Made by a program: the position numbers and the translations under genes. A stretch of 64,000 nt of DNA, taken from an uncultured Gammaproteobacteria bacterium. Its GTDB lineage: Bacteria > Patescibacteriota > Patescibacteriia > Magasanikbacterales > UBA922. The DNA lies in the NCBI GenBank assembly GCA_964345045.1, contig CAYFPM010000001.1, positions 44,215 through 108,214 on the forward strand, read 5' to 3'. The notes beneath the pieces were generated by a model that saw nothing but the letters and a program-made list of their open reading frames with translations, made no database searches and was not told the origin of the DNA. Below, in pieces: positions 18,222 through 62,744 of the stretch (the first letter of the stretch is position 1; every line of letters begins with the position of its first letter).

Positions 18222-19361
18222 ATGCAACAGAGAGCATCACCGGCAACTACTGCCGTCAACGCGGTGAACGCGACGTCTCGAAGAAAGCCTCGTCGTCCTA
18301 CGTGGCGGCGGATCATGCTTCAGCTAACGAAGCCACTTCGTCAGCTTTTCACTCTCGTGTTGGTATTCGCCTGGAAACTATACCAAGGAGTTTGGGGGCA
18401 TCGAAAGAGGATCCCCTTCGTCTTCTTCGTGTACGGCACCGAGCGTGACAAGCGGGCCTACTTCCCTGCTTGGGCCGAGGAGATCCTTCCGGATGTCTTC
18501 CCCATTGCACTCATGAAGTTTCGTGGTCGCAGTGGCCGCGTGATGGCCACCTTCAATGACGTCAACAAACTGCGCGAATCTCCCGCTTTGGCGGTTGGCC
18601 TTTTGGGCTATTACCGCAAGCTGTTCCCCAATTCGGGACCGGTGGCCTTGGCTGGGCAGCTGCCTAGCTTGGTACACAAAGCTGGCGGCAAACTAAAGCA
18701 GCCGTTTGTCCAAGGCACCCGTGGCACCCGTTTTGCCCTCATCGAAGGCTCCCGAGCCTTGGCCAGAGAGTATGGGAGCGATCCAAAGAATCTGACCATC
18801 GCTGTTCTTGGGGGCGCTGGCTATACCGGCCGGTTCGTGGTGTTCGACTTGTCGAACATTTTTGGGCGGGTTGTTGCCTACGACCCTCGGTACACCAAAG
18901 GCCCTACCAACAGCGTGCCGGATACCCCGATCAACATTGCTTTCACCGCAGATCCCTCCGAGTTGGGAAGAGCCGATGTGGTGATCGTCCTCACAGCTAG
19001 TGGAGACGACATTGACGGTGTGGTTGATAACTTGCGTCGAGGAGCAATCCTTGGCGACGACACCCATCCCTGCATGGGTGAAATCGTGCGTGGGCATCTG
19101 GAAGATGCTGGGGTCAAGTATCTCAAGCTTACGACTTCGACTGGTGGTAAAGTACGGATCTTACCGCGTCTCCCCAACTTCCGGGGTGATGACGTTCCGG
19201 GTTGCTTGATCGAAGCCTTGGTGGTAGCAGAGGGACACGAAGTATCTGCGTGTCCCAAAGAACCAAATCCTGGTGATTACGATAGGCAGCACGCCTTCAA
19301 CGAAGCGGCGCGCGAACTTGGTTTCCAAGCCAGGCTGGCCGAGCATACCGGTGATTCATGA
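18222..19361 (+). CDS. Rossmann-fold NAD(P)-binding oxidoreductase-like protein on a high-GC island (family not resolved)
   Basis: IAVLGGAGYTGRFVV glycine-rich dinucleotide-binding motif; GC content far above flanks. Confidence 0.35.
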   Translation: MQQRASPATTAVNAVNATSRRKPRRPTWRRIMLQLTKPLRQLFTLVLVFAWKLYQGVWGHRKRIPFVFFVYGTERDKRAYFPAWAEEILPDVFPIALMKFRGRSGRVMATFNDVNKLRESPALAVGLLGYYRKLFPNSGPVALAGQLPSLVHKAGGKLKQPFVQGTRGTRFALIEGSRALAREYGSDPKNLTIAVLGGAGYTGRFVVFDLSNIFGRVVAYDPRYTKGPTNSVPDTPINIAFTADPSELGRADVVIVLTASGDDIDGVVDNLRRGAILGDDTHPCMGEIVRGHLEDAGVKYLKLTTSTGGKVRILPRLPNFRGDDVPGCLIEALVVAEGHEVSACPKEPNPGDYDRQHAFNEAARELGFQARLAEHTGDS

Positions 19362-35175: not shown

Positions 35176-37761
35176 CTAGATTAGTTTTTTTGATCTGAGT
35201 TTTTGTAGCCGGTCTCTCGCGAGTTTGCCATCCCTGGCCAGTTTACGCTGTCGGGATAGCCAGCTTGTTGAACCGTTGTCTAGTTTCCCACTAGATTCTA
35301 GGCCAGTAAGCAATTCTTGGTATCTTTGATCCCAGCTCTTTTTGGTTTTGCCCCAATCGAACTTTAGGAGATCAAGTTTGCGTACTCGTTCCTTAGAAAG
35401 TTTCCCTTTTCTTCTTCTTACTCTTTGTTGGGCTACCCATGTCGCAAGAGTTTGGTCTTCGTAGAACCTAGTAACCTTGCTGTGACCGTTAGCCTTGAAG
35501 AATGCTGAAAGGATATCGTATGATTCTTCCCAGCTCCTTTTGTCTCGGTACTTCCAACGCAGGCCAATATCGCACAAAGCAACATAGCGTTCGCGAGGTA
35601 GAAGACCTCTAGTGTGACGATCTCTTTGGTAGTTGATCCATCTGCTCAGAGAGTAATTGTCAGGATCCCCAAAGGGGACGTTGCAATCCCCATATTGCTC
35701 CTTGTAGGCGAGCAATTGACCAAACATTTCATCCCAGCTCGAGGTCAACTTGTCTACGCATCGTGTTGTGATCGCGTTACGCAGCAACTCGAGGTCGATC
35801 CCATCAGCTCCAATCACGTCGACTATATCCGCATCGTTGACGTGGTCTTTGCCTTGGTCTCCATTGCTCCCACGTTCACCTCGCTCCTGGCGGAGTCTAG
35901 TGATTTTGTGGGCCATGGCCTCGTCTTGCTCGCGCATGGCGTTGAGCACAGCCCAAACCTCGCGGAAGTCTGCACGCTGCACAGCGTCCTCGATGGATTC
36001 GTCCTCGTGTTGTTCCACATATAGCGGCACAAGAATATAGCCCTTTTTCTTGCCGTTGGCTCGGCGCATGGCTCGGCCAGTAGCTTGGACAATGTCGATG
36101 AGACTACGCTTTTTGGTGAAAAACGCGACCAAATCGACCGTAGGTACGTCCACACCCTCGGTGAGACATCGGGCGTTCGAGATTACTGCTCGCGCAGAAT
36201 GTCGGAAGCCTTGCATCTCTTCTTCGCGCACTGCTGTCGACATATCGCCGTTGACATTGTGGACTGTGAAGTCGCTGGGGATATGGGGAGCCACCGAACG
36301 TGGTCCATCACCAGTGAAAGCCTGGGCATCGACGACGTTGGCATGGAAGGAAAACACTTTGCCTACGCCGTGGCGCTCGATTGCCTTGGCTAGTGAGATC
36401 CAGTTGGCCGCCTCACGCGCCTTGACTCGTACCCCGTCACCCATGTCTACGAAGCCCTTCTCGATATTATCAAGCATCCCGCTTGTCACCACCGACACAA
36501 CGACTTCGTAGTCGCAGATAATGCCTTCGGCAACTGCATCTCGGAAATTCATCTGGTACGCGGTCGGTCCGTAGATTTCTTCATCGTCCATCGAATAGAC
36601 GAGTCTAGCTTCATCATCGTCCTTCTTACTGTCGGGTATATCCCAATGTCTGGGGGTTGCCGTCCAGAAAGTTCGAATGATGATTGGTAGATTCTCGTCT
36701 TCGAGCGCGAATGCGAATTGCCCGCCCTTCTGGGTAGCTGTCTTGTGTGCTTCGTCAAAAACGCCGAGTTCAAAGACGTGCTTCCCACCCATCCCCTCGG
36801 CCACAATCGGTGCCGAGTGGTAGGTGGTGAAAATAATCTTAACCCCATGAGTCTGTGATGCAAGGAATGCAGAAACCGCTGCTGCCTCGTTGGTTACAGG
36901 GAAATCGAGTTCGGTTTGTCCGATCTCGAATTCATGGACACCTTCTGCAACAGTTCGATCCGAACACACGCATAGGAAACTAGGTCGCTGCCAGCTGGTA
37001 TGCTGGAGCCACTCGTGCAGAGTTTGGCGAACTAGTGCAAGTGACGGCACGAGAACTAGGATGCTCTCGACGCCGAGTTGCTCGGCTACAAAAAGCTGAG
37101 TGGAAGTTTTGCCCGTGCCACAGGGCATGATGATTTTCATCCGAGGTTTGTTTTGTGTCACCACCAGGTCACACACATTGTCGCAGGCTTCTTGCTGGCG
37201 TGGCATTGGCTTACGGAGGGTCTTGGCAACTTTGGGTTGCTTTCCGGCAATCCAAGCTCCAATCGCTCGGAGGTTGTCCCGCGTCAGGCGGCTCAGATCT
37301 TTGCCCGAGACTACGTAGATCGATTTAGCTAATCCGTCGATCTCTTCTGGGATCATTTCGACGTTGGTGAAAAGTACATGCGTGCTTCCCCCTCCAACTG
37401 AGAAGAACGGGGTGAGCGCTTCGACGTCTATCTCTTCAGTCTTGTCGCAGAACAACGAATGGTAAACTTGGAGCTCGCCAGTCGCAGTTTCGATGACCCC
37501 ATCGATCAGGTGCGAGTGTAGCCGGAATGTAGCAAAGCCTCGAGGTGCCTGCGTCTCAACCGACCATACCCTCTTGGCTTGTGCCACGGGCATGACAGTG
37601 AGATAGGCTTGCGCGAAGACCATGAAGGCTTCCATGCGCTCTTCTGGATTTTTGAGTCGCGCGATTTTTCGTTCGATCTGCCGGAAGGTGTTGGCGTTTT
37701 CGTAGATACCCATGCGGTTGAAGGTTGCTGCCTTCGGATGTCTGATTGTCTTCAAAGCCAC
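35176..37761 (-). CDS. superfamily-2 DEAD/DEAH-box helicase with C-terminal helicase-associated (HA) domain repeats; GTG start; high-GC island
   Basis: MPCGTGKT Walker A, FDEAHK motif II, QATGRAMR motif VI; repeated W..F..L..Y....G..NVP / L..W...QR C-terminal modules. Confidence 0.7.
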   Translation of the reverse strand: MALKTIRHPKAATFNRMGIYENANTFRQIERKIARLKNPEERMEAFMVFAQAYLTVMPVAQAKRVWSVETQAPRGFATFRLHSHLIDGVIETATGELQVYHSLFCDKTEEIDVEALTPFFSVGGGSTHVLFTNVEMIPEEIDGLAKSIYVVSGKDLSRLTRDNLRAIGAWIAGKQPKVAKTLRKPMPRQQEACDNVCDLVVTQNKPRMKIIMPCGTGKTSTQLFVAEQLGVESILVLVPSLALVRQTLHEWLQHTSWQRPSFLCVCSDRTVAEGVHEFEIGQTELDFPVTNEAAAVSAFLASQTHGVKIIFTTYHSAPIVAEGMGGKHVFELGVFDEAHKTATQKGGQFAFALEDENLPIIIRTFWTATPRHWDIPDSKKDDDEARLVYSMDDEEIYGPTAYQMNFRDAVAEGIICDYEVVVSVVTSGMLDNIEKGFVDMGDGVRVKAREAANWISLAKAIERHGVGKVFSFHANVVDAQAFTGDGPRSVAPHIPSDFTVHNVNGDMSTAVREEEMQGFRHSARAVISNARCLTEGVDVPTVDLVAFFTKKRSLIDIVQATGRAMRRANGKKKGYILVPLYVEQHEDESIEDAVQRADFREVWAVLNAMREQDEAMAHKITRLRQERGERGSNGDQGKDHVNDADIVDVIGADGIDLELLRNAITTRCVDKLTSSWDEMFGQLLAYKEQYGDCNVPFGDPDNYSLSRWINYQRDRHTRGLLPRERYVALCDIGLRWKYRDKRSWEESYDILSAFFKANGHSKVTRFYEDQTLATWVAQQRVRRRKGKLSKERVRKLDLLKFDWGKTKKSWDQRYQELLTGLESSGKLDNGSTSWLSRQRKLARDGKLARDRLQKLRSKKLI

Positions 37762-37845: not shown

Positions 37846-38070
37846 TAAAGAACATCAAATGGCCACAAATTTGAATTTGTGGAACAATCTAAATTAGCTT
37901 ATTTTAGCGAATTTGTCAAGGTTTTTTATTAATTTTGTTTAAGCAAAAAAAAACGCTTAAATAAAGCGTTTTTTTATTTGTGCTTCCGGAGGGAATCCCA
38001 GCCTTCGGCTGATGACCCGTAGGGTCAGAACCCACATGGATGGTTCTCTCGATGAATGATTTTCTGTTTG

Positions 38071-38142
38071 TGCCCCCGGCAGGAATCGAACCCACATCAA
38101 CGGTTCCGAAGACCGTTGTGTTATCCATTACACCACAGGGGC
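38071..38142 (-). tRNA. tRNA-Arg (anticodon TCG)
   Basis: reverse complement GCCCCTGTGGTGTAATGGATAACACAACGGTCTTCGGAACCGTTGATGTGGGTTCGATTCCTGCCGGGGGCA folds as cloverleaf, anticodon loop CTTCGGA. Confidence 0.8.
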
Positions 38143-38155
38143 TTTTAAAAAAATG

Positions 38156-38230
38156 CTCCCCCTATCAGGGGGAGTTAGAGGGGGTCTGGTAGACGATTTG
38201 ACCCCACCTAACCTCCCCTGATAGGGGAGG
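38156..38230. repeat. composite GC-rich palindromic element (CTCCCCCT-N4-AGGGGGAG family), intergenic copy
   Basis: ctccccctatcagggggag ttag agggggtctggtagacgatttgacccc ... cctcccctgataggggagg; same architecture as in-frame copy in queA. Confidence 0.7.
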
Positions 38231-38240
38231 AAAAGAGTAG

Positions 38241-38310
38241 TGAGTTGTGCAGGGTTCGAACCTGCGACCACCTCCGACAAGAGTCGAGGCTGCTCTACCA
38301 TATGACAATA
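38241..38310 (-). pseudogene. tRNA-like fragment (D-loop TGGTAGAGCAG and T-arm GCAGGTTCGAACCCTGC present, acceptor/anticodon stems do not close)
   Basis: could not fold a complete cloverleaf by eye; may be a degenerate or unusual tRNA. Confidence 0.3.
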
Positions 38311-38314
38311 TTTG

Positions 38315-38387
38315 TGCGCCCAGAGGGATTCGAACCCCCGACCGTTTGGTTAAGAGCCAACTGCTCTACCAACTGAGCTATAGGCGC
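38315..38387 (-). tRNA. tRNA-Lys (anticodon CTT)
   Basis: reverse complement GCGCCTATAGCTCAGTTGGTAGAGCAGTTGGCTCTTAACCAAACGGTCGGGGGTTCGAATCCCTCTGGGCGCA; anticodon loop CTCTTAA. Confidence 0.75.
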
Positions 38388-51778: not shown

Positions 51779-52156
51779 ATGGAGGGGAAGTTTTTAAAAT
51801 TGAATGATCTAAATGTTTACAAGGTTTCTTTTCATCTCTCTAATTATGTTTGGAGGGTTGTTATAAAATGGGACTATTTTTCTAAGAAAACCATTGGAGA
51901 TCAGCTAGTCAGATCAATTGATTCTATATCGGCCAATATTGCAGAAGGTTTTGGTAGATATGGGAAAAAGGATAAGATTAAGTTTTATAGGTACTCGATG
52001 GGTTCTATCAAAGAATCCCAAGATTGGATACAAAAAGCTTGGATTAGAAATATTATTGAAGAAAATGAGTATAATCACATAATATCAAAGCTTAATGATT
52101 TGCCAAGAGAACTGAATCATCTGATTAAATTTACAAATGAGAAATTAACAATTTAG
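51779..52156 (+). CDS. four-helix-bundle protein (23S rRNA IVS-protein-like family)
   Basis: SISANIAEGFGRYGKKDKIKFYRYSMGSIKESQDWI. Confidence 0.65.
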   Translation: MEGKFLKLNDLNVYKVSFHLSNYVWRVVIKWDYFSKKTIGDQLVRSIDSISANIAEGFGRYGKKDKIKFYRYSMGSIKESQDWIQKAWIRNIIEENEYNHIISKLNDLPRELNHLIKFTNEKLTI

Positions 52157-52829: not shown

Positions 52830-53186
52830 ATGCAAGATTATCAAAAATTATTGGTTTGGAAAAAAGCAATGGAATTGGTTTCATTGACTTATAGACTGGC
52901 GAAACTATTTCCAAAAGAGGAAATATTTGGTTTAACTAGCCAAATGAAGCGTTCTGTTGTTTCGGTGGTAGCAAACATAGTTGAAGGTAGGGGCAAAGCT
53001 ACAGATAAAGATTTTTTAAAATTTTTATATATTGCCAATGGATCTTTGAACGAAACTAGGTGCTATTATGAAATTGCCCTAGAACTTGAATTTATAAATG
53101 ATGAACAATTTAAATTTGTAGATGAAAAACGTAAGGAAGTGGGATATCTACTCCAAAAGCTAATAAAATCAATCCAAAAAGCCTAG
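52830..53186 (+). CDS. four-helix-bundle protein (second paralog)
   Basis: SVVANIVEGRGKATDKDFLKFLYIANGSLNETRCYYEIA. Confidence 0.65.
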   Translation: MQDYQKLLVWKKAMELVSLTYRLAKLFPKEEIFGLTSQMKRSVVSVVANIVEGRGKATDKDFLKFLYIANGSLNETRCYYEIALELEFINDEQFKFVDEKRKEVGYLLQKLIKSIQKA

Positions 53187-55723: not shown

Positions 55724-55758
55724 TTGGTTGTGGGTAGTTGGTAGTGAGTAGATTTTGA

Positions 55759-55859
55759 GAGTCATCCTGACTCGCCGTGGCGAGGAAGGATCCCAGTGGT
55801 AGTCCAAAGAGATCCTTCGACTGCGTTCGTCCTTTGGACTCACTCCGCTCAGGATGACT
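55759..55859. repeat. nested-inverted-repeat MITE-like element, copy 2
   Basis: outer IR gagtcatcctga...tcaggatgact, inner IR gtccaaag...ctttggac, core cgaggaaggatcccagtgg shared with 41799-41878. Confidence 0.6.
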
Positions 55860-55895
55860 TTGCTTAACTCTTTCATTATTCCTTATTCCAATCAT

Positions 55896-56097
55896 TTGAC
55901 ACTCTTTTTCAAGAGGCATATACTAAAAGTGATCCTGGCAAATTTGGACGAATATTCATATTCTACAAACTAGCTATTATGGAATACCTATATCGTCTCG
56001 ATCCGTGGATTGAGATTGCGGTTATCCACCTATTTTATAGGGATAGCGAATAACGTCCGGCTTGGATCATCAAAAAACAGCTAAAAGGCTGTTTTTT
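55896..56097 (+). promoter_or_regulatory. promoter (TTGACA-17-TATACT) + 24-codon ORF MEYLYRLDPWIEIAVIHLFYRDSE + intrinsic terminator, followed by second promoter TTGATT-16-TAGTAT at 56110-56137
   Basis: same promoter/short-ORF/terminator layout as the three downstream attenuators, but peptide not strongly biased (3 Tyr, 1 Trp). Confidence 0.35.
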
Positions 56098-56167
56098 GTT
56101 TTTTCTATTCTTGATTTTTTATCAATTTATGCTAGTATCAATTTCGCAACAACGGTGTTGCTAAAGA

Positions 56168-57772
56168 GTGAGGTTTGTCGTGAAAGTTTTGAGAGAAGTA
56201 GCAAGTGATATTGGTGGGCTCGTTTCGGTGGTGAACCGTGATACGGTTCGCCAATTCGCGCCGAACGATGGCGGCAATGTGTCGCCTATCGCCATGGAGT
56301 GGAGTTCCTTCTTGAGAGGGACGAGTGCCGACCAGGACTTGATCAAGCTGTGTAAACGTAACCAGGTGTGGCAAGTCATCGTGGTCACGCTCCCCGTGAA
56401 TACCTCCTACCTCGAGTTGGTTCGGGGGAGCGAGTTCGAGGGGGCTGACGTCGAGGAAATCTCCAATATGAATGGTGGGTTTGTCCACTACGTCCTGGTT
56501 CGGGCCAACGAGGGGCCGGCCGGCCCCATGAGCGTGGCAATCGGGGGCGATTGCCTGCGCCCAGAGGCCACCTTGACCGAGGTGTTCGAGAGAGCCTCGC
56601 TCTTGGCCACGGCCATGAGAGCAAAGGCCAGGTCGTTTTTGCCCAGTATGCCCGGCTTCCACGCCGGCAAAAAGGGAGCCCTACTCCTCGTCGACCGAGA
56701 TGGCGAGCGCGTGGTGCTGAGCAATCCCTCGGCCATGGCACTCTCGGCACCGGCCATGGTGCTTGGAGTGGGGTTTGCCAACCGACTACGCGTAGAGAGC
56801 TGTGCTGCTTGGGCTAGCCGCTATCGACTACCGCTCGGGGTTTTGTCTCCGGATTCTCTCTCCCCGGACGTGGTTACGGGAGGAGGGTGGACTCGGCTTG
56901 CCCAGGCATTCCGCTACTACGGGCTTGACTCTCGTATGGCCACCTGCCAGCCGGGCAAGACGCCGAATCCCTCGTCGGTGCCCACTGGCCAAGGTGTAGC
57001 CACGGCTGCTCTAGAAGTGGCCAAGTGGCTGCGGGAGTCGGGTAGAGTCCCGCAGGGCGAGCCGATTCGGGTGCTTGTCGAGGCTGCTGGCGCAGTGACG
57101 CAGGGCATGTTCCCACTGCTGCTAGAAGAAGGATTGGTGAAACCCGAGTACCTCACCTTCTACGACCCTAGCAGAGAGGCGATCGCCGTGATCGAGGCTC
57201 TGGTACCCGGCTGCCAAACGCTCTGTCGTTCGAACGATGTGGCACTCAGCAAGTTGGCCAACAAGACCTTCGATATCTTGATCAACAATGGCCTGGGCAA
57301 CCACTTGGGTACGCCAAAGCATATGGAGCACTTGGGAAGGATGGTTAGGTCTGGAGGACAGTTGGTGGTCTTGGGTGGAGCCAACAACATCATCAAGTGG
57401 GACAACCCGGCACTCAACTTGCCTCTCGTCATGGCTGAACGAGGAATTCAGGTGATCCCCGATACGGCTGTGTCGGGCGGTGGTTGGACCTTGGCCTTGG
57501 CTGGCCAAGCTGCCGAAGTGGCCGGGGTTGACCCGAGCAAATTGGCCAACCCGGTCAGTTCGTTTGTGTGTCGCTCGGTCTCGAGGAGAATTCAATCTGC
57601 CCTTGTCGCCTTCGGCGAGGGTGGTGGCGACCACCTCTGGAAGATCGTCTCGGAGCAGATGGAAGAGGCCGCTCCGTCGCTCGACCTGGTTCTCCCCGAG
57701 GACGAGTGGGCGGCGGCTGTCGATCCGAGAGACTTCCTGCGAGCGATAGGTGTGTCGCTCCAGGGCGAGTAG
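56168..57772 (+). CDS. Glu/Leu/Phe/Val-dehydrogenase-family (amino-acid dehydrogenase-like) protein, highly divergent; alternative GTG start 56180
   Basis: VVLGGANNIIKWDNPALNLPLVMAERGIQVIPDTAVSGGGWTL aligns with family block EGANGPTT..A..IL.ERGI.V.PDILANAGGVTVS; canonical GxGxxG replaced (VEAAGAV). Confidence 0.45.
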   Translation: MRFVVKVLREVASDIGGLVSVVNRDTVRQFAPNDGGNVSPIAMEWSSFLRGTSADQDLIKLCKRNQVWQVIVVTLPVNTSYLELVRGSEFEGADVEEISNMNGGFVHYVLVRANEGPAGPMSVAIGGDCLRPEATLTEVFERASLLATAMRAKARSFLPSMPGFHAGKKGALLLVDRDGERVVLSNPSAMALSAPAMVLGVGFANRLRVESCAAWASRYRLPLGVLSPDSLSPDVVTGGGWTRLAQAFRYYGLDSRMATCQPGKTPNPSSVPTGQGVATAALEVAKWLRESGRVPQGEPIRVLVEAAGAVTQGMFPLLLEEGLVKPEYLTFYDPSREAIAVIEALVPGCQTLCRSNDVALSKLANKTFDILINNGLGNHLGTPKHMEHLGRMVRSGGQLVVLGGANNIIKWDNPALNLPLVMAERGIQVIPDTAVSGGGWTLALAGQAAEVAGVDPSKLANPVSSFVCRSVSRRIQSALVAFGEGGGDHLWKIVSEQMEEAAPSLDLVLPEDEWAAAVDPRDFLRAIGVSLQGE

Positions 57773-57899
57773 AGCGACTGCCTGGCTCCGGCCCCTAGTC
57801 TCTTTTTAGGCCAGGCGCGACACCAATTTTTGTTCTTTTTTGTTGCGGCGAGCCTAGATTTTACCTTTGGTATATCTGGGCTCGTTGCACACACTCATC

Positions 57900-58059
57900 T
57901 TGACAAGAAGCAGAGATTTGTGTATATTAGTTTTAATCTTATGAAAACAAATATCCACAACTTCTTTTTCTTTTCTTTCTTTATCCCGCCAAAGAGTCGT
58001 GGTGTTTTGAGTTAATGCAAATTAAAATCAAGATTACCCCGACTCGTCGGGGTTTTTTG
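57900..58059 (+). promoter_or_regulatory. Phe-rich leader-peptide attenuator: promoter TTGACA-17-TATATT, near-leaderless ORF MKTNIHNFFFFSFFIPPKSRGVLS (57941-58015), intrinsic terminator 58036-58059
   Basis: 6 Phe codons in a 7-codon run (TTC TTT TTC TTT TCT TTC TTT); alternative pairing gagtcg(57998)/cgactc(58042) could act as antiterminator. Confidence 0.6.
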
Positions 58060-58167
58060 TTTATTCGGGTTTGGCGAAAGGTGATTAGACTTTTCGCTAA
58101 CCTCGAAGCCATAGTGGCTGAGGGGTTGAGACAATTTTTTCGCGAAAGCGAGAGAGGACAATAGACA

Positions 58168-59019
58168 ATGAAGAGTGAGCGAGAGTTTCTTGCCCAATAC
58201 ATGGACGGACCGGAGCATCGGCCAGACTGGGCTGGACATTCTGCGTTCGAGCTCGAAGGTCAGTTTGCCTTGCGTGGTGGCAATACCAACACCCAGCTGG
58301 TCTACCCGGTTGGACATTTGGTCTACAATGGCTTGATGAAAAGCTTCCCAAATGATCAGGAGCGCTTTAGCCCAGAGTTCAGCAACACTCAGGTGGAGCT
58401 GAACACCGGTGCTTGTGCAACCCCCGATCTGACGCTGGCAAAATTGCTCGAGCTGGTGGGGAAGATCAACCAGGTCGCTGGTCGTCACAACTTCCAGTTC
58501 GTGGATCACGAGTTCATCCCACTCAACGTGTGGGTTCCCGAGCAGGTATCACCGCTGGTGCCCCGCTACCAGCAGTTTGCCAACGATCCAGCCAACGTCG
58601 AGCGCGTGCCGCTGATGCACCGGGTGGCAGCGGCTCAGGTGCAGTGGGGCTGCGCCGATCCGGAGGAGCGTTTGGCACTCTTGAACGCCCTCACCACCGA
58701 ACTCGGTACCATGGAGAGCTTGGGATGGATCGACCCTGGTCGCAAGGCCGCGTTCGAAAAAATCCATGCCGGTTGGTACCCGCCTCCCTTCGACACTTGG
58801 AGTCGGTTTTACGAGTACATCCGAAGTCACCAAGATGGCGTGGCCATGATCGAGAGCCCGGCTCTGTACTACGCAGCAGTGCGTCCTCACCACGTGTACA
58901 GCACTGTCGAGCTCCGGCTCCCCGGCGCTACGCTCGATCCGGAGCGCTTGTTCCAGATTGTGTCGTTCGTGGCCGAGGTGTACAGCCAAGTCTGTAGGCG
59001 ACGTAGTGTAGCTGTCTAG
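58168..59019 (+). CDS. GCS2-family (glutamate-cysteine ligase family 2 / carboxylate-amine ligase) paralog, short form
   Basis: N-terminal AFELEGQ (E-x-E) and C-terminal STVELRLPGATLDPERL resembling YbdK TVEVRVMDTP block; middle HVHVG/LSAASP blocks not recognised. Confidence 0.4.
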   Translation: MKSEREFLAQYMDGPEHRPDWAGHSAFELEGQFALRGGNTNTQLVYPVGHLVYNGLMKSFPNDQERFSPEFSNTQVELNTGACATPDLTLAKLLELVGKINQVAGRHNFQFVDHEFIPLNVWVPEQVSPLVPRYQQFANDPANVERVPLMHRVAAAQVQWGCADPEERLALLNALTTELGTMESLGWIDPGRKAAFEKIHAGWYPPPFDTWSRFYEYIRSHQDGVAMIESPALYYAAVRPHHVYSTVELRLPGATLDPERLFQIVSFVAEVYSQVCRRRSVAV

Positions 59020-59136
59020 TCCCCCCCGAAGCATTCCTGCCCCACAAGAATGCTTCACCCCTTCCCTTTGTACAAAAATAATTTTGTATAGAGAAAAGAG
59101 GATTCTATTTTAAAAAGGAGATTATGCACATTTTGA

Positions 59137-59300
59137 TTGACAGGAAAGTAGAATTTGGATAATATCTAAATATTATGAAAAATAAGCGCAACATTCTGCT
59201 ACTAAGCCTGCTAGCTCTAGCCCCAGAGAGTGGTGATGTTGTGTTATCTGCCTAAGCAAAAACACATATTAGCAACACCGCTCATCTGCGGTGTTTTTGT
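59137..59300 (+). promoter_or_regulatory. Leu-rich leader-peptide attenuator: promoter TTGACA-17-TAATAT, leaderless ORF MKNKRNILLLSLLALAPESGDVVLSA (59175-59255), intrinsic terminator 59275-59300
   Basis: 6 Leu in 8 codons, four of them rare-looking CTA; terminator caccgc tcatct gcggtg ttttt. Confidence 0.6.
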
Positions 59301-59368
59301 TTACTTTGTCGAATTAAGCTTGGACTGAGTAGAGTAAAACTCATTCAGTTCAGACCGATTCTGACAAT

Positions 59369-60694
59369 TTGATTGGACGCTGCGTTGCAGCAAGGAGAGA
59401 AAGCCCCATGGCAACCCCGTGGACTACAGAAAACCTTCAAACCGCTGGCCGAGATGCACTTGCAAATTTGCTGGCGGAGAGTTCGCGAGCAGTTGCCAAG
59501 GCCTCAAATTCTGGTTGGATGGCTTTCGAGATGGAAGCCTCTCTGACCAAACTTCGCATTCCTGATTTGGCTGGGGTCTGGCCTGAAGTGAAGAGGGCTG
59601 ACGAGGTAGGTGTGGTCGTGGACGAGTTTCAAGACTACATGATCGAAGGCGTCCCTCCGCGTGACGCTGGAATCGTGGACGCGATGGGACTTCGTAGTTC
59701 GATCCTAGATGTAGCAGAGGCTATGGTCGCTGCTTGCGACAAGGCTGGCGTGCGCCTTACTCCCATTGCTCACCCTGATTCTTGGGGGGGGAAGCGGGAT
59801 ACCAAGATGCCTCAAAAGGCCGACCACCAGCGCATGGTTCGAGACACCATGCCGGCGGTTGGCTTGGGGGCTATTGGGGCCTCGCTCCAGCTCCACTGTG
59901 CCCACCCCTGCAACATCACCGAGGACAGATACTGGCGTACCCTCTTGCTCCTCCAGCAGCACGCGCCGCTCCTCTTGGCCTTGTCGGCCAACAGCCCCAA
60001 GAGCGGTAGCATGATTCATGGCAGCGTTCGGTATCTGCTTAGCCGATCGGTTTGGTCATTCCAGCCGTACTTCTGGCAGAGCTACGAAGAGTTCGTGGAT
60101 CATGTGCATGCACTTGTCCAGTACGGCAGCATCACCGGGCCGCACAACCTGCACGGTTGGGTCAAAGCCTGTGTCGGTTCGATCGAGCAACGTATCTGCG
60201 ACATTCCCGGTACTGTCCAAGAGATCTGGACGCTCTGTGCTCTGATGCGCGCTTTGGTGCAGTACTGCTACGAGCAGGCAGCTGACCCCAATGGATTCCT
60301 TCTTCAGGGAGATATTGGTCGTGATCAGCTGCTCTTGGCTCTGGAGCAGGCGGCCACCTTTGGCCTTTCCGACATGCAGGATTGCCGAATCCAAAGCCCG
60401 TGGGAAGGTCAGCGCGTCAAGCTCTACGATCTGTTCATGGAGCTCGGCAATCGCGTCGGAGATATCATGACGGATCAAGGGGCTGACTGGGAGAGGCAGT
60501 ACCTCTTCGAGCATATGCTCGCCGATCAGAAATGCGGCGAGAACGGAGCCACCCGGTTTGCGCGTTGGCACGAGCAGCACGACGGCAACATGACCAGGGT
60601 GGTGGAGGCCGCTAGCCGGCACTTCGGGCAGTCTCTCGGAGAGGCGAAAAAATCTCTGTCTGCGATGCAGCCAGATCAAGTCGTGAATCAATAG
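59369..60694 (+). CDS. GCS2-family carboxylate-amine ligase (glutamate-cysteine ligase family 2)
   Basis: LQLHCAHP (cf. HVHVG), LLALSANSPKSG (cf. LSAASPYMQG), SIEQRICDIPGT (cf. TVEVRVMDTP). Confidence 0.55.
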   Translation: MIGRCVAARRESPMATPWTTENLQTAGRDALANLLAESSRAVAKASNSGWMAFEMEASLTKLRIPDLAGVWPEVKRADEVGVVVDEFQDYMIEGVPPRDAGIVDAMGLRSSILDVAEAMVAACDKAGVRLTPIAHPDSWGGKRDTKMPQKADHQRMVRDTMPAVGLGAIGASLQLHCAHPCNITEDRYWRTLLLLQQHAPLLLALSANSPKSGSMIHGSVRYLLSRSVWSFQPYFWQSYEEFVDHVHALVQYGSITGPHNLHGWVKACVGSIEQRICDIPGTVQEIWTLCALMRALVQYCYEQAADPNGFLLQGDIGRDQLLLALEQAATFGLSDMQDCRIQSPWEGQRVKLYDLFMELGNRVGDIMTDQGADWERQYLFEHMLADQKCGENGATRFARWHEQHDGNMTRVVEAASRHFGQSLGEAKKSLSAMQPDQVVNQ

Positions 60695-60890
60695 TTCCTT
60701 TTGTGTAGTTAGCCATAGTTTTGGAGGCTGGCCCACTACACTCCCTTCCTTTTGCACAAAAGTTATTTTGTATAGAAGAGAGGTATAAATTAGTTTTCAC
60801 GCTGGCTCCATAGTCCCAGAGGTCTATGGAGCCAAATTGCCACAATACGGCTCCACAGGGCTACGCCACTATGGAGCCAGCATAGTAGTT

Positions 60891-60991
60891 CCTCCCCTAT
60901 AAGGGGAGGCTAGGTGGGGTCAAATCGTATACCAGACCCCCTCCCCGATGCTTTGATCGGGGCAGGCCAACTCCCCCTATTAGGGGGAGAG
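60891..60991. repeat. composite GC-rich palindromic element (CTCCCCCT-N4-AGGGGGAG family), long variant, just upstream of Ile-leader promoter
   Basis: cctcccctataaggggagg ... ggggtcaaatcgtataccagacccc ... ccccgatgctttgatcgggg ... ctccccctattagggggagag. Confidence 0.7.
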
Positions 60992-61009
60992 TTTCTGTCC
61001 ACAAAAACA

Positions 61010-61165
61010 TTGACATCCGCCTACAGCTCTGATAGGGTGAAGATAATATGAACAAACTATTCAACATTATTATTTGGATTATCGCCCAGTTTGGTGGTAA
61101 GTTTGTTCGTGAATAAAAATATTTACAACAAAAAATTACCGCCGGAGATGGCGGTATTTTTTTTC
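61010..61165 (+). promoter_or_regulatory. Ile-rich leader-peptide attenuator: promoter TTGACA-17-TAGGGT, leaderless ORF MNKLFNIIIWIIAQFGGKFVRE (61048-61116), intrinsic terminator 61136-61165
   Basis: 5 Ile in 7 codons; terminator taccgcc ggagat ggcggta tttttttt; RBS taggaagg before downstream gene. Confidence 0.6.
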
Positions 61166-61267
61166 TCGATCTTTGCAAACGTACTGGGTAGCACTGTGAT
61201 TACAAAATGTATTCAGAGTGGTGCCTAGTACCAAATTTTGTTTTTTGACAATGCAATATAGGAAGGT

Positions 61268-62617
61268 GTGACAATGAATCGGAAAATGAAAGAAGTTGCT
61301 CGTCGGGTCGCAGACCTGATCGAGGCGATGAACTACGCTGGACAGCGTGGGCTCCAGCTTGGGACAGAGCGAGAATTGGTAGCTGTGAAGGCCTCGAATC
61401 CTCGAGAGGTCGGAGGCTTTGCACTCTCTGTCGCCCAGAATCTCGCGACACAGCCAGGTTGGACAGCTGTCTACGACGGCACCACCGATCTGGTGGTTGG
61501 AGCCAAAAGTCCTGGTGGCGAGTACGAGGTCATGACCGACGCTGGCAAGTGGGTTCTAGAATACTGCCCGCTCGCACCGTGCGACTCTCTCAATAGTCTC
61601 GATAGGTTGTGTGGGGAGGCCGAGCGAACGATTATCTCGGCATCCCAAGGGCTTGGTTTCGAAGTTCTCGGTCTTGGGCGGCATCCGCTCTTTCTGGCAA
61701 ACCGGAGTAGCTGGACCCCAAAGCTGCGCTACAATGGTCTGCAGTCAGTTCTCAAGAACGGGGGCCACGAGACCTGCGAGACTGCTTCGCACCAAGATAC
61801 TGTAGACGTACGAAATTCGGGACACATGATGCAGGTGGTCAACATCGGCAACGCTCTAGCAGGTCCGGTTGCCGCTATCTGCGCCAACTCGCTAGTGTTT
61901 CACGGAGAAGTGCATCAAGATCAACTGGCCAGCCGGTTGCTGACGTGGCAAAGGATTTGCCACCCGGTACAATTCGCTCGAGTGGGTATCCCCATGGTCT
62001 TTCGGGACGTAGGGCACTACGCCGAATACCTGGTGCGTTTGCCGTACCTCTTCCACATTCACGAAACTGGTGTTGCCGACGTGTTCGACAAACCTTTCTA
62101 CGAAGCGGTTGAGTACTTCGAGAGCGTTGACTTCGGACGTTTGCTGCAGATTCACATGGCTTGCGTGTGGTTCGATGCTCGGGTACGCATGAACAAGTGT
62201 GCCAGTGTCGAGCTGCGAGCACCGTGTGCTCAGCCTCAAGGCATGGGTCAAGCGGTGTCTGCTCTACACCTAGGGCTGGTTCACAACTCGGCAGCTGCCA
62301 GCAACTTGGTGCTGACGCATTCTTGGGATGAGTGGCAGGCAGCGCGCTTCGATGCCGCCAATTTGGCACTCAACGCCAGCGTTGGATCTGAGCCTATGGC
62401 AGAGGTGGTCCGGTCTATGTTGCACGTGGCCGAAGATGGCTTACGCTTAGCCGGAGAGGACCCTACCAGGCTTGCCCCGCTGTGGCAACGACTCGAGGAT
62501 CCTTCTCAATTGCCAGCTATGATGGCCGGCAAGCTCTTTGTCGAGGGTGGAATAGATGCCTTGGTAGAGGCCAGGCGCTTCCAACTACAGCAAGAGCCAG
62601 TAGCTCGCGCTTCTTAG
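61268..62617 (+). CDS. GCS2-family carboxylate-amine ligase paralog
   Basis: LGTERELVAV N-terminal E-x-E, ICANSLVFHGE, ASVELRAPCAQP (cf. TVEVRVMDTP). Confidence 0.5.
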   Translation: MTMNRKMKEVARRVADLIEAMNYAGQRGLQLGTERELVAVKASNPREVGGFALSVAQNLATQPGWTAVYDGTTDLVVGAKSPGGEYEVMTDAGKWVLEYCPLAPCDSLNSLDRLCGEAERTIISASQGLGFEVLGLGRHPLFLANRSSWTPKLRYNGLQSVLKNGGHETCETASHQDTVDVRNSGHMMQVVNIGNALAGPVAAICANSLVFHGEVHQDQLASRLLTWQRICHPVQFARVGIPMVFRDVGHYAEYLVRLPYLFHIHETGVADVFDKPFYEAVEYFESVDFGRLLQIHMACVWFDARVRMNKCASVELRAPCAQPQGMGQAVSALHLGLVHNSAAASNLVLTHSWDEWQAARFDAANLALNASVGSEPMAEVVRSMLHVAEDGLRLAGEDPTRLAPLWQRLEDPSQLPAMMAGKLFVEGGIDALVEARRFQLQQEPVARAS

Positions 62618-62744
62618 TTCTTTTGCGGATCTCATCCATCCGCCTACTCCTTTTGTAGACGAAAAATCGTCTGCAAAAGAAGACTCTTAGCCAATTGACT
62701 AAGGGGAAAAATTTTGATATATTTTATTCCATTTATAAAAAATT

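What the first reader, a model, noticed from the sequence alone, without database searches (positions are those of the whole stretch)
56168..57772. Divergent Glu/Leu/Phe/Val-dehydrogenase-family protein lacking a canonical GxGxxG dinucleotide motif
The C-terminal block GGANN...MAERGIQVIPDTAVSGGG matches the family signature, but the expected NAD(P)-binding glycine loop is replaced by VEAAGAVTQG and the catalytic-Lys region is unclear. It may be a non-redox paralog or have altered cofactor usage. Its position in front of the Phe/Leu/Ile-attenuated genes fits a Phe/Leu-type keto-acid/amino-acid interconversion.
Basis: partly seen in the sequence, partly recalled or inferred. Interest (0 to 1): 0.6.

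Follow-up and report, generated by a model that had tools for sequence, protein, structure and literature searches.

The report
Divergent, uncharacterised amino-acid dehydrogenase clade member
The flagged gene encodes a real but very divergent relative of leucine/phenylalanine/glutamate dehydrogenases that keeps the catalytic residues, belongs to an unnamed clade often found next to the leucyl-tRNA synthetase gene, and reached this tiny-genome bacterium by horizontal transfer.

Summary
The ORF 56168-57772 (+, 534 aa) is real and intact. Pfam and NCBIfam do not recognise it directly. A 25-sequence family profile does match canonical Glu/Leu/Phe/Val (ELFV) dehydrogenases across both domains (hhalign probability 99.85%, E 1.3e-30). 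A high-confidence AlphaFold model (pLDDT 90) retrieves only Leu/Phe/Trp/Glu dehydrogenases from the PDB.

The catalytic Lys (K169), the carboxylate-binding Lys (K153) and the catalytic Asp (D234) are invariant in the family. VEAAGAVTQG aligns with the GxGxxG loop and is a family-wide variant, [A/G]-x-G-x-V-[G/T/S], that keeps the central Gly. D333 is conserved at the end of beta-2. An active NAD-type amino-acid dehydrogenase is therefore more likely than a non-redox paralog. The pocket is hydrophobic, not Glu-type.

The clade has about 25 representatives at 50% identity, all labelled "hypothetical". Its only recurrent neighbour is leuS, in about half of the loci.

In this window the gene is foreign (GC3 0.71 against 0.22-0.43 for host genes) in a Patescibacteria genome. 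It heads an island with three orphan GCS2-type ligases. Each ligase has a convincing Phe-, Leu- or Ile-leader attenuator. The dehydrogenase itself is not attenuated, and its pairing with the ligases is unique to this genome.

The parts
56168..57772 (+). ORF encoding the 534-aa divergent ELFV-type amino-acid dehydrogenase homolog (alternative GTG start at 56180)
   Evidence: ORF; hhalign 99.85% and 99.6%; AF2 pLDDT 90; Foldseek, all top hits ELFV dehydrogenases; intact in a second assembly
56168..56467 (+). N-terminal extension of about 100 aa, clade-specific, not aligned to canonical ELFV enzymes
   Evidence: hhalign alignment begins at residue 99-110; modelled as a small alpha/beta unit, with pLDDT 58-59 for residues 31-50
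56513..56560 (+). GPAGPMSVAIGGDCLR: equivalent of the GPxxGGxR substrate-loop motif with a 6-residue insertion. I125 occupies the position just before GG (Leu in LeuDH, Lys in GDH)
   Evidence: G126 and G127 invariant in 25 sequences
56624..56626 (+). K153, aligned with the substrate alpha-carboxylate-binding Lys (LeuDH K68 equivalent)
   Evidence: invariant
56672..56674 (+). K169 in HAGKKG, aligned with the catalytic Lys of the GGxK motif (LeuDH K80 equivalent)
   Evidence: invariant
56867..56869 (+). D234 in SPDV, aligned with the catalytic Asp (LeuDH D115 equivalent)
   Evidence: invariant
57077..57106 (+). VEAAGAVTQG: degenerate dinucleotide-binding loop (A306-x-G308-x-V-T311), aligned with GxGxxG
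   Evidence: G308 invariant; local pLDDT 93-97
57164..57166 (+). D333 at the end of beta-2, the acidic residue typical of NAD(H)-preferring Rossmann folds
   Evidence: conserved in at least 90% of members
57374..57388 (+). GGANN motif of the ELFV nucleotide domain
57458..57496 (+). PDTAVSGGGWTLA: ELFV 'PD..NAGGV' motif. W440 and A443 sit at the side-chain-pocket positions (LeuDH V291/V294, GDH V377/S380)
57255..57277 (+). Patch of four substitutions relative to one ENA assembly (TTG to TAG stop, F368C, I370M, one synonymous). The window version matches the family consensus
   Evidence: F368 invariant in the 4-sequence alignment A1
56071..56098 (+). Intrinsic terminator upstream of the ORF (12-bp stem plus T-run). 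It forms regardless of ribosome position on the upstream sORF 55979-56053, so it is not an attenuator
56111..56138 (+). Weak sigma-70-like promoter (TTGATT-16-TAGTAT, 8 of 12) between the terminator and the ORF
   Evidence: pattern match only
55724..62744 (+). Foreign four-gene island: the ELFV-like gene plus three GCS2-like ligase genes (58168-59019, 59408-60694, 61274-62617), with GC-rich coding regions separated by host-like AT-rich spacers
   Evidence: GC3 0.60-0.71 against 0.22-0.43 for host genes; GCS2

Best explanation
The gene encodes a catalytically competent, NAD(H)-type amino-acid dehydrogenase. It belongs to a deep, previously unnamed clade of the Glu/Leu/Phe/Val (ELFV) dehydrogenase superfamily.

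Inferred mechanism. The protein has the two-domain ELFV fold. A 2-oxo acid or amino acid binds in the cleft between the domains, with its carboxylate on K153. K169 and D234 carry out the imine and carbinolamine chemistry. Hydride moves to or from a nicotinamide held by a Rossmann domain. In that domain the glycine loop is relaxed to A-x-G-x-V-T, and D333 at the end of beta-2 favours NAD over NADP.

Substrate. The side-chain pocket (I125, S232, W440, A443) is apolar and lacks the Lys/Ser pair that GDH uses for glutamate. The substrate is therefore most likely a neutral, hydrophobic (Leu-like) amino acid or oxo acid.

Distinguishing features. The clade has an N-terminal extension of about 100 aa, a 6-residue insertion in the GP..GG loop and a helical insertion between K169 and D234.

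In this genome. The host is a Patescibacteria bacterium related to Ca. Magasanikbacteria, and the gene was acquired horizontally. It is probably expressed from its own weak promoter. It is not controlled by a leader-peptide attenuator.

Shown here: homology, fold, residue conservation, foreign composition and gene context. Inferred: enzymatic activity, cofactor and substrate class.
For: Homology. hhalign of the 25-sequence family against canonical two-domain ELFV enzymes gives probability 99.85%, E 1.3e-30, over 342 columns covering residues 99-506. Against Leu/Val-DH-like sequences it gives 99.6%, E 4.5e-24. The family profile searched against PDB sequences ranks LeuDH at 3.9e-18, PheDH at 1.9e-14, TrpDH at 8.8e-14 and GDH at 2.8e-11. 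22 of 25 members hit PF00208 individually.

Fold. The AF2 model has pLDDT 90 and pTM 0.90. Foldseek's top 50 PDB hits are all ELFV dehydrogenases, with target-normalised TM up to 0.76 to PheDH 1c1d/1bw9 and LeuDH 7vid.

Residues. G126, G127, K153, G167, K169, D234, G308, G403, A405, N406, G438, G439 and A443 are invariant. D333 and W440 are at least 90% conserved. Several members keep a canonical GxGGVG loop.

Substrate hints. leuS is the immediate neighbour in 16 of 34 loci, plus L015 and L022.

Intactness and origin. The intact ORF is present in two assemblies. GC3 is 0.71 against 0.22-0.43 for host genes. The host was identified from its ArgRS.

Regulation. The upstream terminator forms at every ribosome position, and none of 300 shuffled leaders disrupts it.
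Against: No activity data exist for any member of the clade.

The window protein itself falls below the Pfam and NCBIfam thresholds. PF02812 is not detected in any member. The PROSITE ELFV signature fails in 0 of 25 members.

The first and third glycines of GxGxxG are Ala and Thr here, which could weaken or alter dinucleotide binding.

Trp at the pocket position and the loop insertion mean the substrate cannot be read off by analogy.

Contexts differ between sub-clades: leuS in many loci, a methyltransferase/PLP/OCD operon for P0005, three ligases in this window, and solitary in P0002 and P0003. One function for all members is therefore not assured.

One assembly of the same population carries a premature stop.
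Confidence: 0.6

Rival explanations
1. It is a tailoring enzyme of a small-molecule pathway. It would act on a non-proteinogenic amino acid, amine or imine, not in central Leu/Phe metabolism. In this island it would make or consume the building block that the three ATP-dependent GCS2-type ligases join into an amide or peptide-like product.
For: The next-closest relative, P0005, heads a tight operon: ELFV-like, then SAM methyltransferase, PLP enzyme (PALP), DUF2000 and an ornithine-cyclodeaminase-like gene. P0007 is a natural fusion with a methyltransferase. In the window the four GC-rich genes have matching composition and lie together. The pocket differs from LeuDH: Trp440 and a loop insertion.
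Against: No homolog elsewhere is next to GCS2-like ligases. The ligases are each switched by starvation-type leaders for Phe, Leu or Ile, which is odd for a biosynthetic cluster, while the dehydrogenase is not. The commonest neighbour of the wider clade is the housekeeping gene leuS.
Confidence: 0.2
2. It is a non-redox paralog: a pseudo-enzyme or ligand/RNA-binding regulator that keeps the ELFV fold but no longer turns over NAD(P)H. It might act together with LeuRS.
For: The glycine loop is degenerate (A-x-G-x-x-T). The PROSITE signature is absent in the whole clade. There is an extra N-terminal domain of unknown role. Adjacency to leuS could reflect a non-metabolic partnership.
Against: Invariance of the catalytic K169 and D234 and of the carboxylate-binding K153 across sequences only 16-41% identical to the window protein is hard to explain without catalysis. 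So is conservation of G308, D333 and GGANN. Some members keep a canonical GxGGVG loop. The Rossmann core is modelled at pLDDT above 90.
Confidence: 0.12
3. It is a decaying remnant of horizontal transfer with no function in this host.
For: It is foreign in composition. One assembly of the same population has a stop codon plus two damaging substitutions within a 23-nt patch. The nearest promoter-like site is weak.
Against: The full-length ORF is intact in two assemblies. Every family-invariant residue is retained. The four clustered changes in the third assembly look like a local assembly or read artefact, since there are no other differences in 17.8 kb.
Confidence: 0.05

Closest known systems
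Leucine dehydrogenase (e.g. PDB 8GXD, 1LEH, 6ACF, 7VID)
   Same: It is the best PDB sequence match to the family profile (E 3.9e-18) and among the best structural matches (target-normalised TM 0.66-0.76). It shares the two-domain fold, the Lys/Lys/Asp catalytic set, a hydrophobic residue before the GG motif, an acidic beta-2 residue, and the G(G/S)ANN and PD..GG motifs.
   Different: LeuDH is about 360 aa and this protein is 534 aa. The window protein has an N-terminal extension of about 100 aa, a 6-residue insertion in the GP..GG loop and a long helical insertion after the catalytic Lys. Its loop is A-x-G-x-V-T rather than GVGNVA. Trp and Ala replace the pocket valines. Identity is only about 16%.
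Phenylalanine dehydrogenase (Rhodococcus, PDB 1C1D/1BW9/1BXG) and tryptophan dehydrogenase (Nostoc, 5B37)
   Same: PheDH gives the highest target-normalised TM-scores (0.76, rmsd 4.0 Å over about 400 columns). Profile E-values are 1.9e-14 for PheDH and 8.8e-14 for TrpDH. Both belong to the hydrophobic-substrate branch.
   Different: The differences are the same extra segments and altered motifs as for LeuDH. There is no evidence for an aromatic-sized pocket; Trp440 would narrow it (inference from alignment only).
Glutamate dehydrogenase (hexameric 45-50 kDa class, e.g. 6YEH, 8S38)
   Same: It shares the superfamily, the fold and the catalytic residues.
   Different: It is the more distant branch (E 1e-11 and weaker). 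The two GDH residues that bind the glutamate gamma-carboxylate (Lys before GG, Ser in the GGV..S motif) are Ile125 and Ala443 here. Glutamate is therefore an unlikely substrate.

Membership tests
ELFV (Glu/Leu/Phe/Val) dehydrogenase superfamily | Direct match of this protein to Pfam PF00208 (C-terminal NAD(P)-binding domain) at the gathering threshold | tested here: not met
   No PF00208 hit at E<=1 for the window protein. However, 22 of 25 clade members match individually, best E 4.5e-10.
ELFV (Glu/Leu/Phe/Val) dehydrogenase superfamily | Direct match to Pfam PF02812 (N-terminal substrate/dimerisation domain) | tested here: not met
   0 of 25 members match at E<=0.01.
ELFV (Glu/Leu/Phe/Val) dehydrogenase superfamily | Profile-profile homology across both domains | tested here: met
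   hhalign probability 99.85%, E 1.3e-30, residues 99-506 against 50-410 of a Pfam-verified two-domain enzyme. Against LeuDH-like sequences: 99.6%, E 4.5e-24.
ELFV (Glu/Leu/Phe/Val) dehydrogenase superfamily | Two-domain ELFV fold | tested here: met
   AF2 model with pLDDT 90 and pTM 0.90. All of Foldseek's top 50 PDB hits are ELFV enzymes, E down to 5e-11, target-normalised TM up to 0.76.
ELFV (Glu/Leu/Phe/Val) dehydrogenase superfamily | Catalytic Lys (GGxK), catalytic Asp and carboxylate-binding Lys | tested here: met
   K169, D234 and K153 align with the invariant K107, D147 and K95 of the reference alignment. They are invariant in 25 clade members.
ELFV (Glu/Leu/Phe/Val) dehydrogenase superfamily | PROSITE PS00074 active-site signature [LIV]-x(2)-G-G-[SAG]-K-x-[GV]-x(3)-[DNST]-[PL] (pattern recalled from memory; PS00074 is named as the ELFV pattern in PMC7326016) | tested here: not met
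   0 of 25 clade members match, because the motif here is (H/A)-G-K-K-G. Only 3 of 9 divergent canonical controls match, so the test is strict.
ELFV (Glu/Leu/Phe/Val) dehydrogenase superfamily | GxGxxG/A dinucleotide fingerprint and acidic residue at the end of beta-2 | tested here: inconclusive
   The loop is A306-A-G308-A-V-T311. The central Gly is invariant, the first position is A or G, and the last is G, T or S across the clade. D333 is conserved in at least 90% of members. Whether NAD(H) actually binds was not testable.
ELFV (Glu/Leu/Phe/Val) dehydrogenase superfamily | NAD(P)+-dependent oxidative deamination activity | not testable with these tools
   This needs an enzyme assay.
Leucine dehydrogenase subfamily | Hydrophobic specificity residues (Leu before GG; Ala in xAxD; two Val in the GGV..V motif) and a size of about 360 aa | tested here: inconclusive
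   The position before GG is Ile or Val in all 25 members. The other positions are Ser232, Trp440 and Ala443. The protein is 534 aa with extra segments.
Glutamate dehydrogenase subfamily | Lys before the GG motif and Ser in the pocket motif, which bind the glutamate gamma-carboxylate | tested here: not met
   These positions are Ile125 and Ala443.
Leader-peptide transcription attenuation (applied to the flagged gene itself) | A terminator whose formation depends on ribosome position on an upstream leader ORF with a run of regulatory codons | tested here: not met
   The upstream sORF has no amino-acid run. The terminator 56071-56098 forms at every ribosome position. The same test is met for the three downstream ligase genes.

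The most novel reading that the evidence does not exclude
The clade is a functionally new type of ELFV enzyme coupled to leucyl-tRNA synthetase. It might supply Leu from its oxo acid, or remove near-cognate amino acids that LeuRS must otherwise edit.

In this Patescibacteria genome it would be the constitutive first gene of a horizontally acquired module. The module's three orphan GCS2-type ligases are each switched on separately by Phe, Leu or Ile starvation through paralogous leader-peptide attenuators. Together they would form an amino-acid salvage or conjugation system of a kind not yet described, and would be the first documented leader-peptide attenuators in the candidate phyla radiation.
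Probability: 0.15. Interest if true: 0.8.

Novelty: new variant of a known kind. Interest (0 to 1): 0.5.

Why it matters
ELFV dehydrogenases are textbook enzymes and workhorses of biocatalysis for chiral amino-acid and amine synthesis. This work defines an unnamed, deep clade. It has about 25 representatives at 50% identity, spread across Acidobacteriota, Planctomycetota, Chloroflexota, Armatimonadota and Patescibacteria, and every public source labels it 'hypothetical'. It has a remodelled substrate loop, an altered dinucleotide loop and an extra N-terminal domain, so it is a concrete target for discovering a new substrate specificity.

Its recurrent adjacency to leuS suggests a link between amino-acid redox metabolism and tRNA charging that can be tested directly.

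Its presence as foreign DNA in a metabolically minimal CPR bacterium raises a question. It sits beside three ligases that are individually attenuated by Phe, Leu and Ile. How such symbionts sense and respond to amino-acid scarcity is largely unexplored.

Tried and rejected
Direct family scans. Pfam, NCBIfam, PADLOC and PHROGs scans of the protein gave nothing usable. The only hit was a sub-threshold methyltransferase match to its Rossmann core, which I rejected as generic Rossmann similarity. A single-sequence PDB search gave only that same kind of weak hit, YtkW at E 0.027.

Defence or mobile-element idea. This was prompted by one TIR fusion (P0021) and one methyltransferase fusion (P0007). 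There was no PADLOC match to the ELFV-like part, no viral loci and no PHROG match, so I did not pursue it.

Conserved operon with the GCS2 ligases. I rejected this. tBLASTn and neighbour clustering over about 40 loci found none. The nearest relative of the third ligase sits in an unrelated context.

The 861-aa GC-rich ORF as the conserved partner. I rejected this. It is a ResIII/helicase with HA domains.

Leaders upstream of orthologs P0002 and P0003. There are none.

DGR-type variation as an explanation for the 4-SNP patch. bAvd-like genes lie nearby, but no template-like repeat of the patch exists in the window.

Literature. Searches for the sequencing project, for this clade and for attenuation in Patescibacteria returned nothing relevant.

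Genome scan. The first genome-collection scan with the 25-sequence alignment failed for lack of a conserved stretch. I repeated it with 13 sequences.
Full report
**1. The observation**

The ORF at 56168-57772 (+) is real. It is 534 aa with a GTG start and a TAG stop. A second in-frame GTG at 56180 is preceded by a better Shine-Dalgarno-like GAGTGAGG, so the true N-terminus may be four residues shorter.

The same 534-aa protein is on record from a 621-kb NCBI contig and from an independent ENA assembly. A third assembly of the same population differs from the window at only four positions in 17.8 kb. All four lie within 57255-57277. They produce a stop codon, F368C, I370M and one synonymous change. 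The window version matches the family consensus at these positions; F368 is invariant in the subclade alignment. I therefore treat the intact reading as genuine and the variant as a local artefact or a minor allele.

**2. Family assignment**

Curated libraries do not recognise the protein directly.
- Pfam gives only a sub-threshold methyltransferase hit to the Rossmann core.
- NCBIfam gives nothing.
- A word-indexed search of 5.8 billion proteins found just three relatives at 37-39% identity.

Profile methods do recognise it.
- A profile of those four sequences put Glu and Leu dehydrogenases in all top ten PDB places (best E 1.5e-4).
- An exhaustive HMM search of 1.84 billion cluster representatives found 25 proteins at E<1e-30. 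Below that, hits grade into ordinary two-domain ELFV enzymes.
- Of 25 aligned full-length members, 22 hit PF00208 individually. None hits the N-terminal domain PF02812.
- Profile-profile comparison with nine Pfam-verified canonical enzymes gives probability 99.85%, E 1.3e-30, over 342 columns. It spans residues 99-506, so it covers both domains.
- Against Leu/Val-DH-like sequences the figures are 99.6% and E 4.5e-24.

Structure agrees.
- With the 25-sequence alignment, AlphaFold2 gives pLDDT 90 and pTM 0.90.
- Foldseek's top 50 PDB hits are exclusively Leu, Phe, Trp and Glu dehydrogenases. Target-normalised TM reaches 0.76 (PheDH 1c1d/1bw9, LeuDH 7vid).
- At sequence-profile level, LeuDH (3.9e-18), PheDH (1.9e-14) and TrpDH (8.8e-14) outrank all GDHs (2.8e-11 and weaker).

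**3. Active site and cofactor loop**

The alignments place the residues as follows.
- K153 (M-x-x-K-A) aligns with the carboxylate-binding Lys.
- K169 (G-G-x-K, here A-G-K-K) aligns with the catalytic Lys.
- D234 (S-P-D-V) aligns with the catalytic Asp.

All three are invariant in 25 sequences that share only 16-41% identity with the window protein.

VEAAGAVTQG aligns column for column with the GxGxxG loop. The central G308 is invariant. The first position is Ala in most members and Gly in some. The last position is Gly, Thr or Ser. Several members (P0013, P0018-P0020, P0031) keep a fully canonical GxGGVG. So the loop is a clade-wide relaxed variant, not a loss.

D333 at the end of beta-2 is at least 90% conserved, and the GGANN and PD..GGGW motifs are conserved across the clade (G403, A405, N406, G438 and G439 invariant). 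From general knowledge of Rossmann folds, this pattern points to NAD rather than NADP.

The residue just before the GG motif is Lys in GDH and Leu in LeuDH. It is Ile or Val in every member of this clade. The position of GDH's glutamate-binding Ser is an invariant Ala (A443). A conserved Trp (W440) occupies the LeuDH Val291 position. The pocket is therefore apolar and not glutamate-type, but it is not a copy of LeuDH either.

The PROSITE ELFV signature, recalled from memory and named as PS00074 in PMC7326016, fails in all 25 members.

**4. What sets the clade apart**

Three features distinguish the clade from canonical ELFV enzymes.
- An N-terminal extension of about 100 residues that does not align with canonical enzymes.
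- A six-residue insertion in the GP..GG substrate loop.
- A long helical insertion between the catalytic Lys and the catalytic Asp.

Every public source that names a member calls it 'hypothetical protein'. I found no paper describing it.

**5. Distribution and gene context**

Named genomes carrying the family include Acidobacteriota/Thermoanaerobaculia, Ca. Uabimicrobium (Planctomycetota), Chloroflexota, a Fimbriimonadaceae MAG and a Maricaulaceae isolate.

I clustered the neighbouring ORFs over about 40 genome and metagenome loci. Exactly one widely conserved neighbour emerged: leucyl-tRNA synthetase, confirmed by its PF13603 editing domain.
- It is the immediately adjacent gene in 16 of 34 loci, plus L015 and L022.
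- It is downstream in most loci, upstream in a Chloroflexi MAG and divergent in the Fimbriimonadaceae MAG.
- Many of these loci are Acidobacteriota, so the counts are not phylogenetically independent. The different arrangements in other phyla argue for a functional link all the same.

Other contexts differ.
- The next-closest relative of the window protein (P0005) heads an operon with a SAM methyltransferase, a PLP enzyme, DUF2000 and an ornithine-cyclodeaminase-like gene.
- P0007 is fused to a methyltransferase, and P0021 to a TIR domain.
- The two closest relatives (P0002, P0003) sit alone between rplA and ldh/rpsB in other small, low-GC genomes. There they are again GC-rich outliers: 63-64% against 43-45% for the flanks.
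- No member was found on viral contigs or in defence-system models.

**6. The window itself**

The host's ArgRS is 57-63% identical to Ca. Magasanikbacteria proteins. The window carries housekeeping genes (ValRS, ArgRS, two iPGM copies) and a DUF4012 surface protein, consistent with a reduced genome. The host is therefore a Patescibacteria/CPR bacterium.

The flagged gene and the next three genes have GC3 of 0.60-0.71, against 0.22-0.43 for host genes. The spacers between them are host-like and AT-rich.

The three downstream genes are highly divergent GCS2/YbdK-type carboxylate-amine ligases. They are barely similar to each other and are nearly orphans in the databases.

Each ligase gene is preceded by the same series of elements: a near-consensus promoter, a 22-26-codon ORF and an intrinsic terminator. 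The three ORFs contain the runs FFFFSFF, LLLSLLAL and IIIWII. Several tests support attenuation.
- I slid a 30-nt ribosome footprint along each leader. An antiterminator replaces the terminator while the ribosome is at or before the run. The terminator forms once the ribosome has passed the run.
- Dinucleotide shuffles of the leaders lose the terminator in only 5, 0 and 3 of 300 trials.
- Rfam's Phe_leader model matches two of the cassettes over its full length, below threshold (32 and 27 bits).
- The cassettes align with each other, so they look like diverged copies of one module.

The flagged gene fails the same test. The small ORF upstream of it has no amino-acid run, and its terminator (56071-56098) forms at every ribosome position. 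A weak promoter-like site lies between that terminator and the gene. But the attenuated genes are ligases, not Phe/Leu/Ile biosynthetic genes. The dehydrogenase is not part of that control, and the pairing occurs nowhere else.

**7. Explanation and rivals**

The best-supported reading is an active NAD(H)-type amino-acid dehydrogenase of a distinct ELFV clade with a neutral or hydrophobic substrate, acquired horizontally (confidence about 0.6). Homology, fold, residue conservation and context are shown. Activity, cofactor and substrate class are inferred.

There are three rivals.
- A tailoring enzyme for a non-proteinogenic substrate, working with the neighbouring ligases or methyltransferases (about 0.2).
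- A non-redox pseudo-enzyme (about 0.12). The invariant catalytic set argues against it.
- A decaying transfer remnant (about 0.05). The intact, motif-complete ORF in two assemblies argues against it.

**8. Novelty and score**

This is not a new kind of protein. It is a new, unnamed variant of a very well-known enzyme family, with altered motifs and a suggestive link to leuS. A specialist would find it moderately interesting. The surrounding island, with three amino-acid-specific attenuators in a CPR genome driving orphan ligases, is the more surprising feature, but it lies outside the finding I was given. Interest is 0.5.

Noticed in passing
window 57895-58066, 59132-59308, 61006-61168: There are three leader-peptide attenuator cassettes, each a promoter, a short ORF and a terminator. 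They lie in front of three GCS2-like ligase genes. The leaders are MKTNIHNFFFFSFFIPPKSRGVLS, MKNKRNILLLSLLALAPESGDVVLSA and MNKLFNIIIWIIAQFGGKFVRE. Sliding-ribosome folding shows the terminator is off while the ribosome is at or before the run and on after it. Shuffled leaders lose the terminator in only 5, 0 and 3 of 300 trials. Rfam Phe_leader matches two cassettes below threshold. The cassettes align with each other, so they look paralogous. I found no report of such attenuators in Patescibacteria.
   Followed up: partly
window 58168-59019, 59408-60694, 61274-62617: Three GC-rich GCS2/YbdK-type carboxylate-amine ligase paralogs are almost unrelated to each other by BLAST and nearly orphan in the databases. 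The third has only two distant relatives in 5.8 billion proteins. The first is short (283 aa) and lacks roughly the last 100 positions of the family models.
   Followed up: partly
window 59059-59092 and 60743-60776: A 34-nt direct repeat (88% identical) lies just downstream of the first and second ligase genes. It contains an AT-rich hairpin (TACAAAA...TTTTGTA). It suggests the spacer modules were duplicated.
   Followed up: no
window 57255-57277: The only four differences from an ENA assembly of the same population in 17.8 kb are clustered in 23 nt inside the flagged gene. They are T>A, C>G, T>G and C>G in the ENA version. They create a stop codon and two substitutions at positions conserved in the close relatives. 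This is likely an assembly or read artefact, but a real minor allele is not excluded.
   Followed up: partly
window 55755-55865: A 111-nt multi-branched structured element lies just downstream of the aminotransferase gene. It has nested inverted repeats, MFE -47.9 kcal/mol and z = -3.6 against shuffles. It has no Rfam match.
   Followed up: partly
window 35176-37761 (-), next to tRNA-Arg and tRNA-Lys at 38070-38387: An 861-aa ResIII/helicase with two C-terminal HA (helicase-associated) domains. It is GC-rich (GC3 0.57) and sits on the opposite strand to nearly all other genes. It is a second foreign patch, beside tRNA genes.
   Followed up: partly
window 18222-19361 (+): A 379-aa ORF with foreign composition (GC3 0.61) and no Pfam or PHROG match. 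It is a third foreign patch in the window.
   Followed up: no
window 5337-6923 and 6977-8590 (+): Two tandem full-length copies of cofactor-independent phosphoglycerate mutase (iPGM). That is unusual redundancy for a genome of about 0.6 Mb.
   Followed up: no
window about 51779-52156 and 52830-53186 (+): Two 23S_rRNA_IVP-type four-helix-bundle genes, one also hitting bAvd (the DGR accessory protein family), flank the nucleoside-diphosphate kinase gene. No reverse transcriptase was seen in the part of the window I annotated.
   Followed up: no
loci L011-L025 and L041-L049 (related genomes): In about half of the loci carrying this dehydrogenase clade, the immediately adjacent gene is leuS (leucyl-tRNA synthetase), in three different arrangements across several phyla.
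   Followed up: yes
locus L030 10001-14844: The relative P0005 heads an operon: ELFV-like, then SAM methyltransferase, PLP enzyme (PALP), DUF2000 and ornithine-cyclodeaminase-like. The PALP plus OCD pair resembles (from memory) the SbnA/SbnB diaminopropionate-forming pair. P0007 is a natural ELFV-like plus methyltransferase fusion.
   Followed up: no
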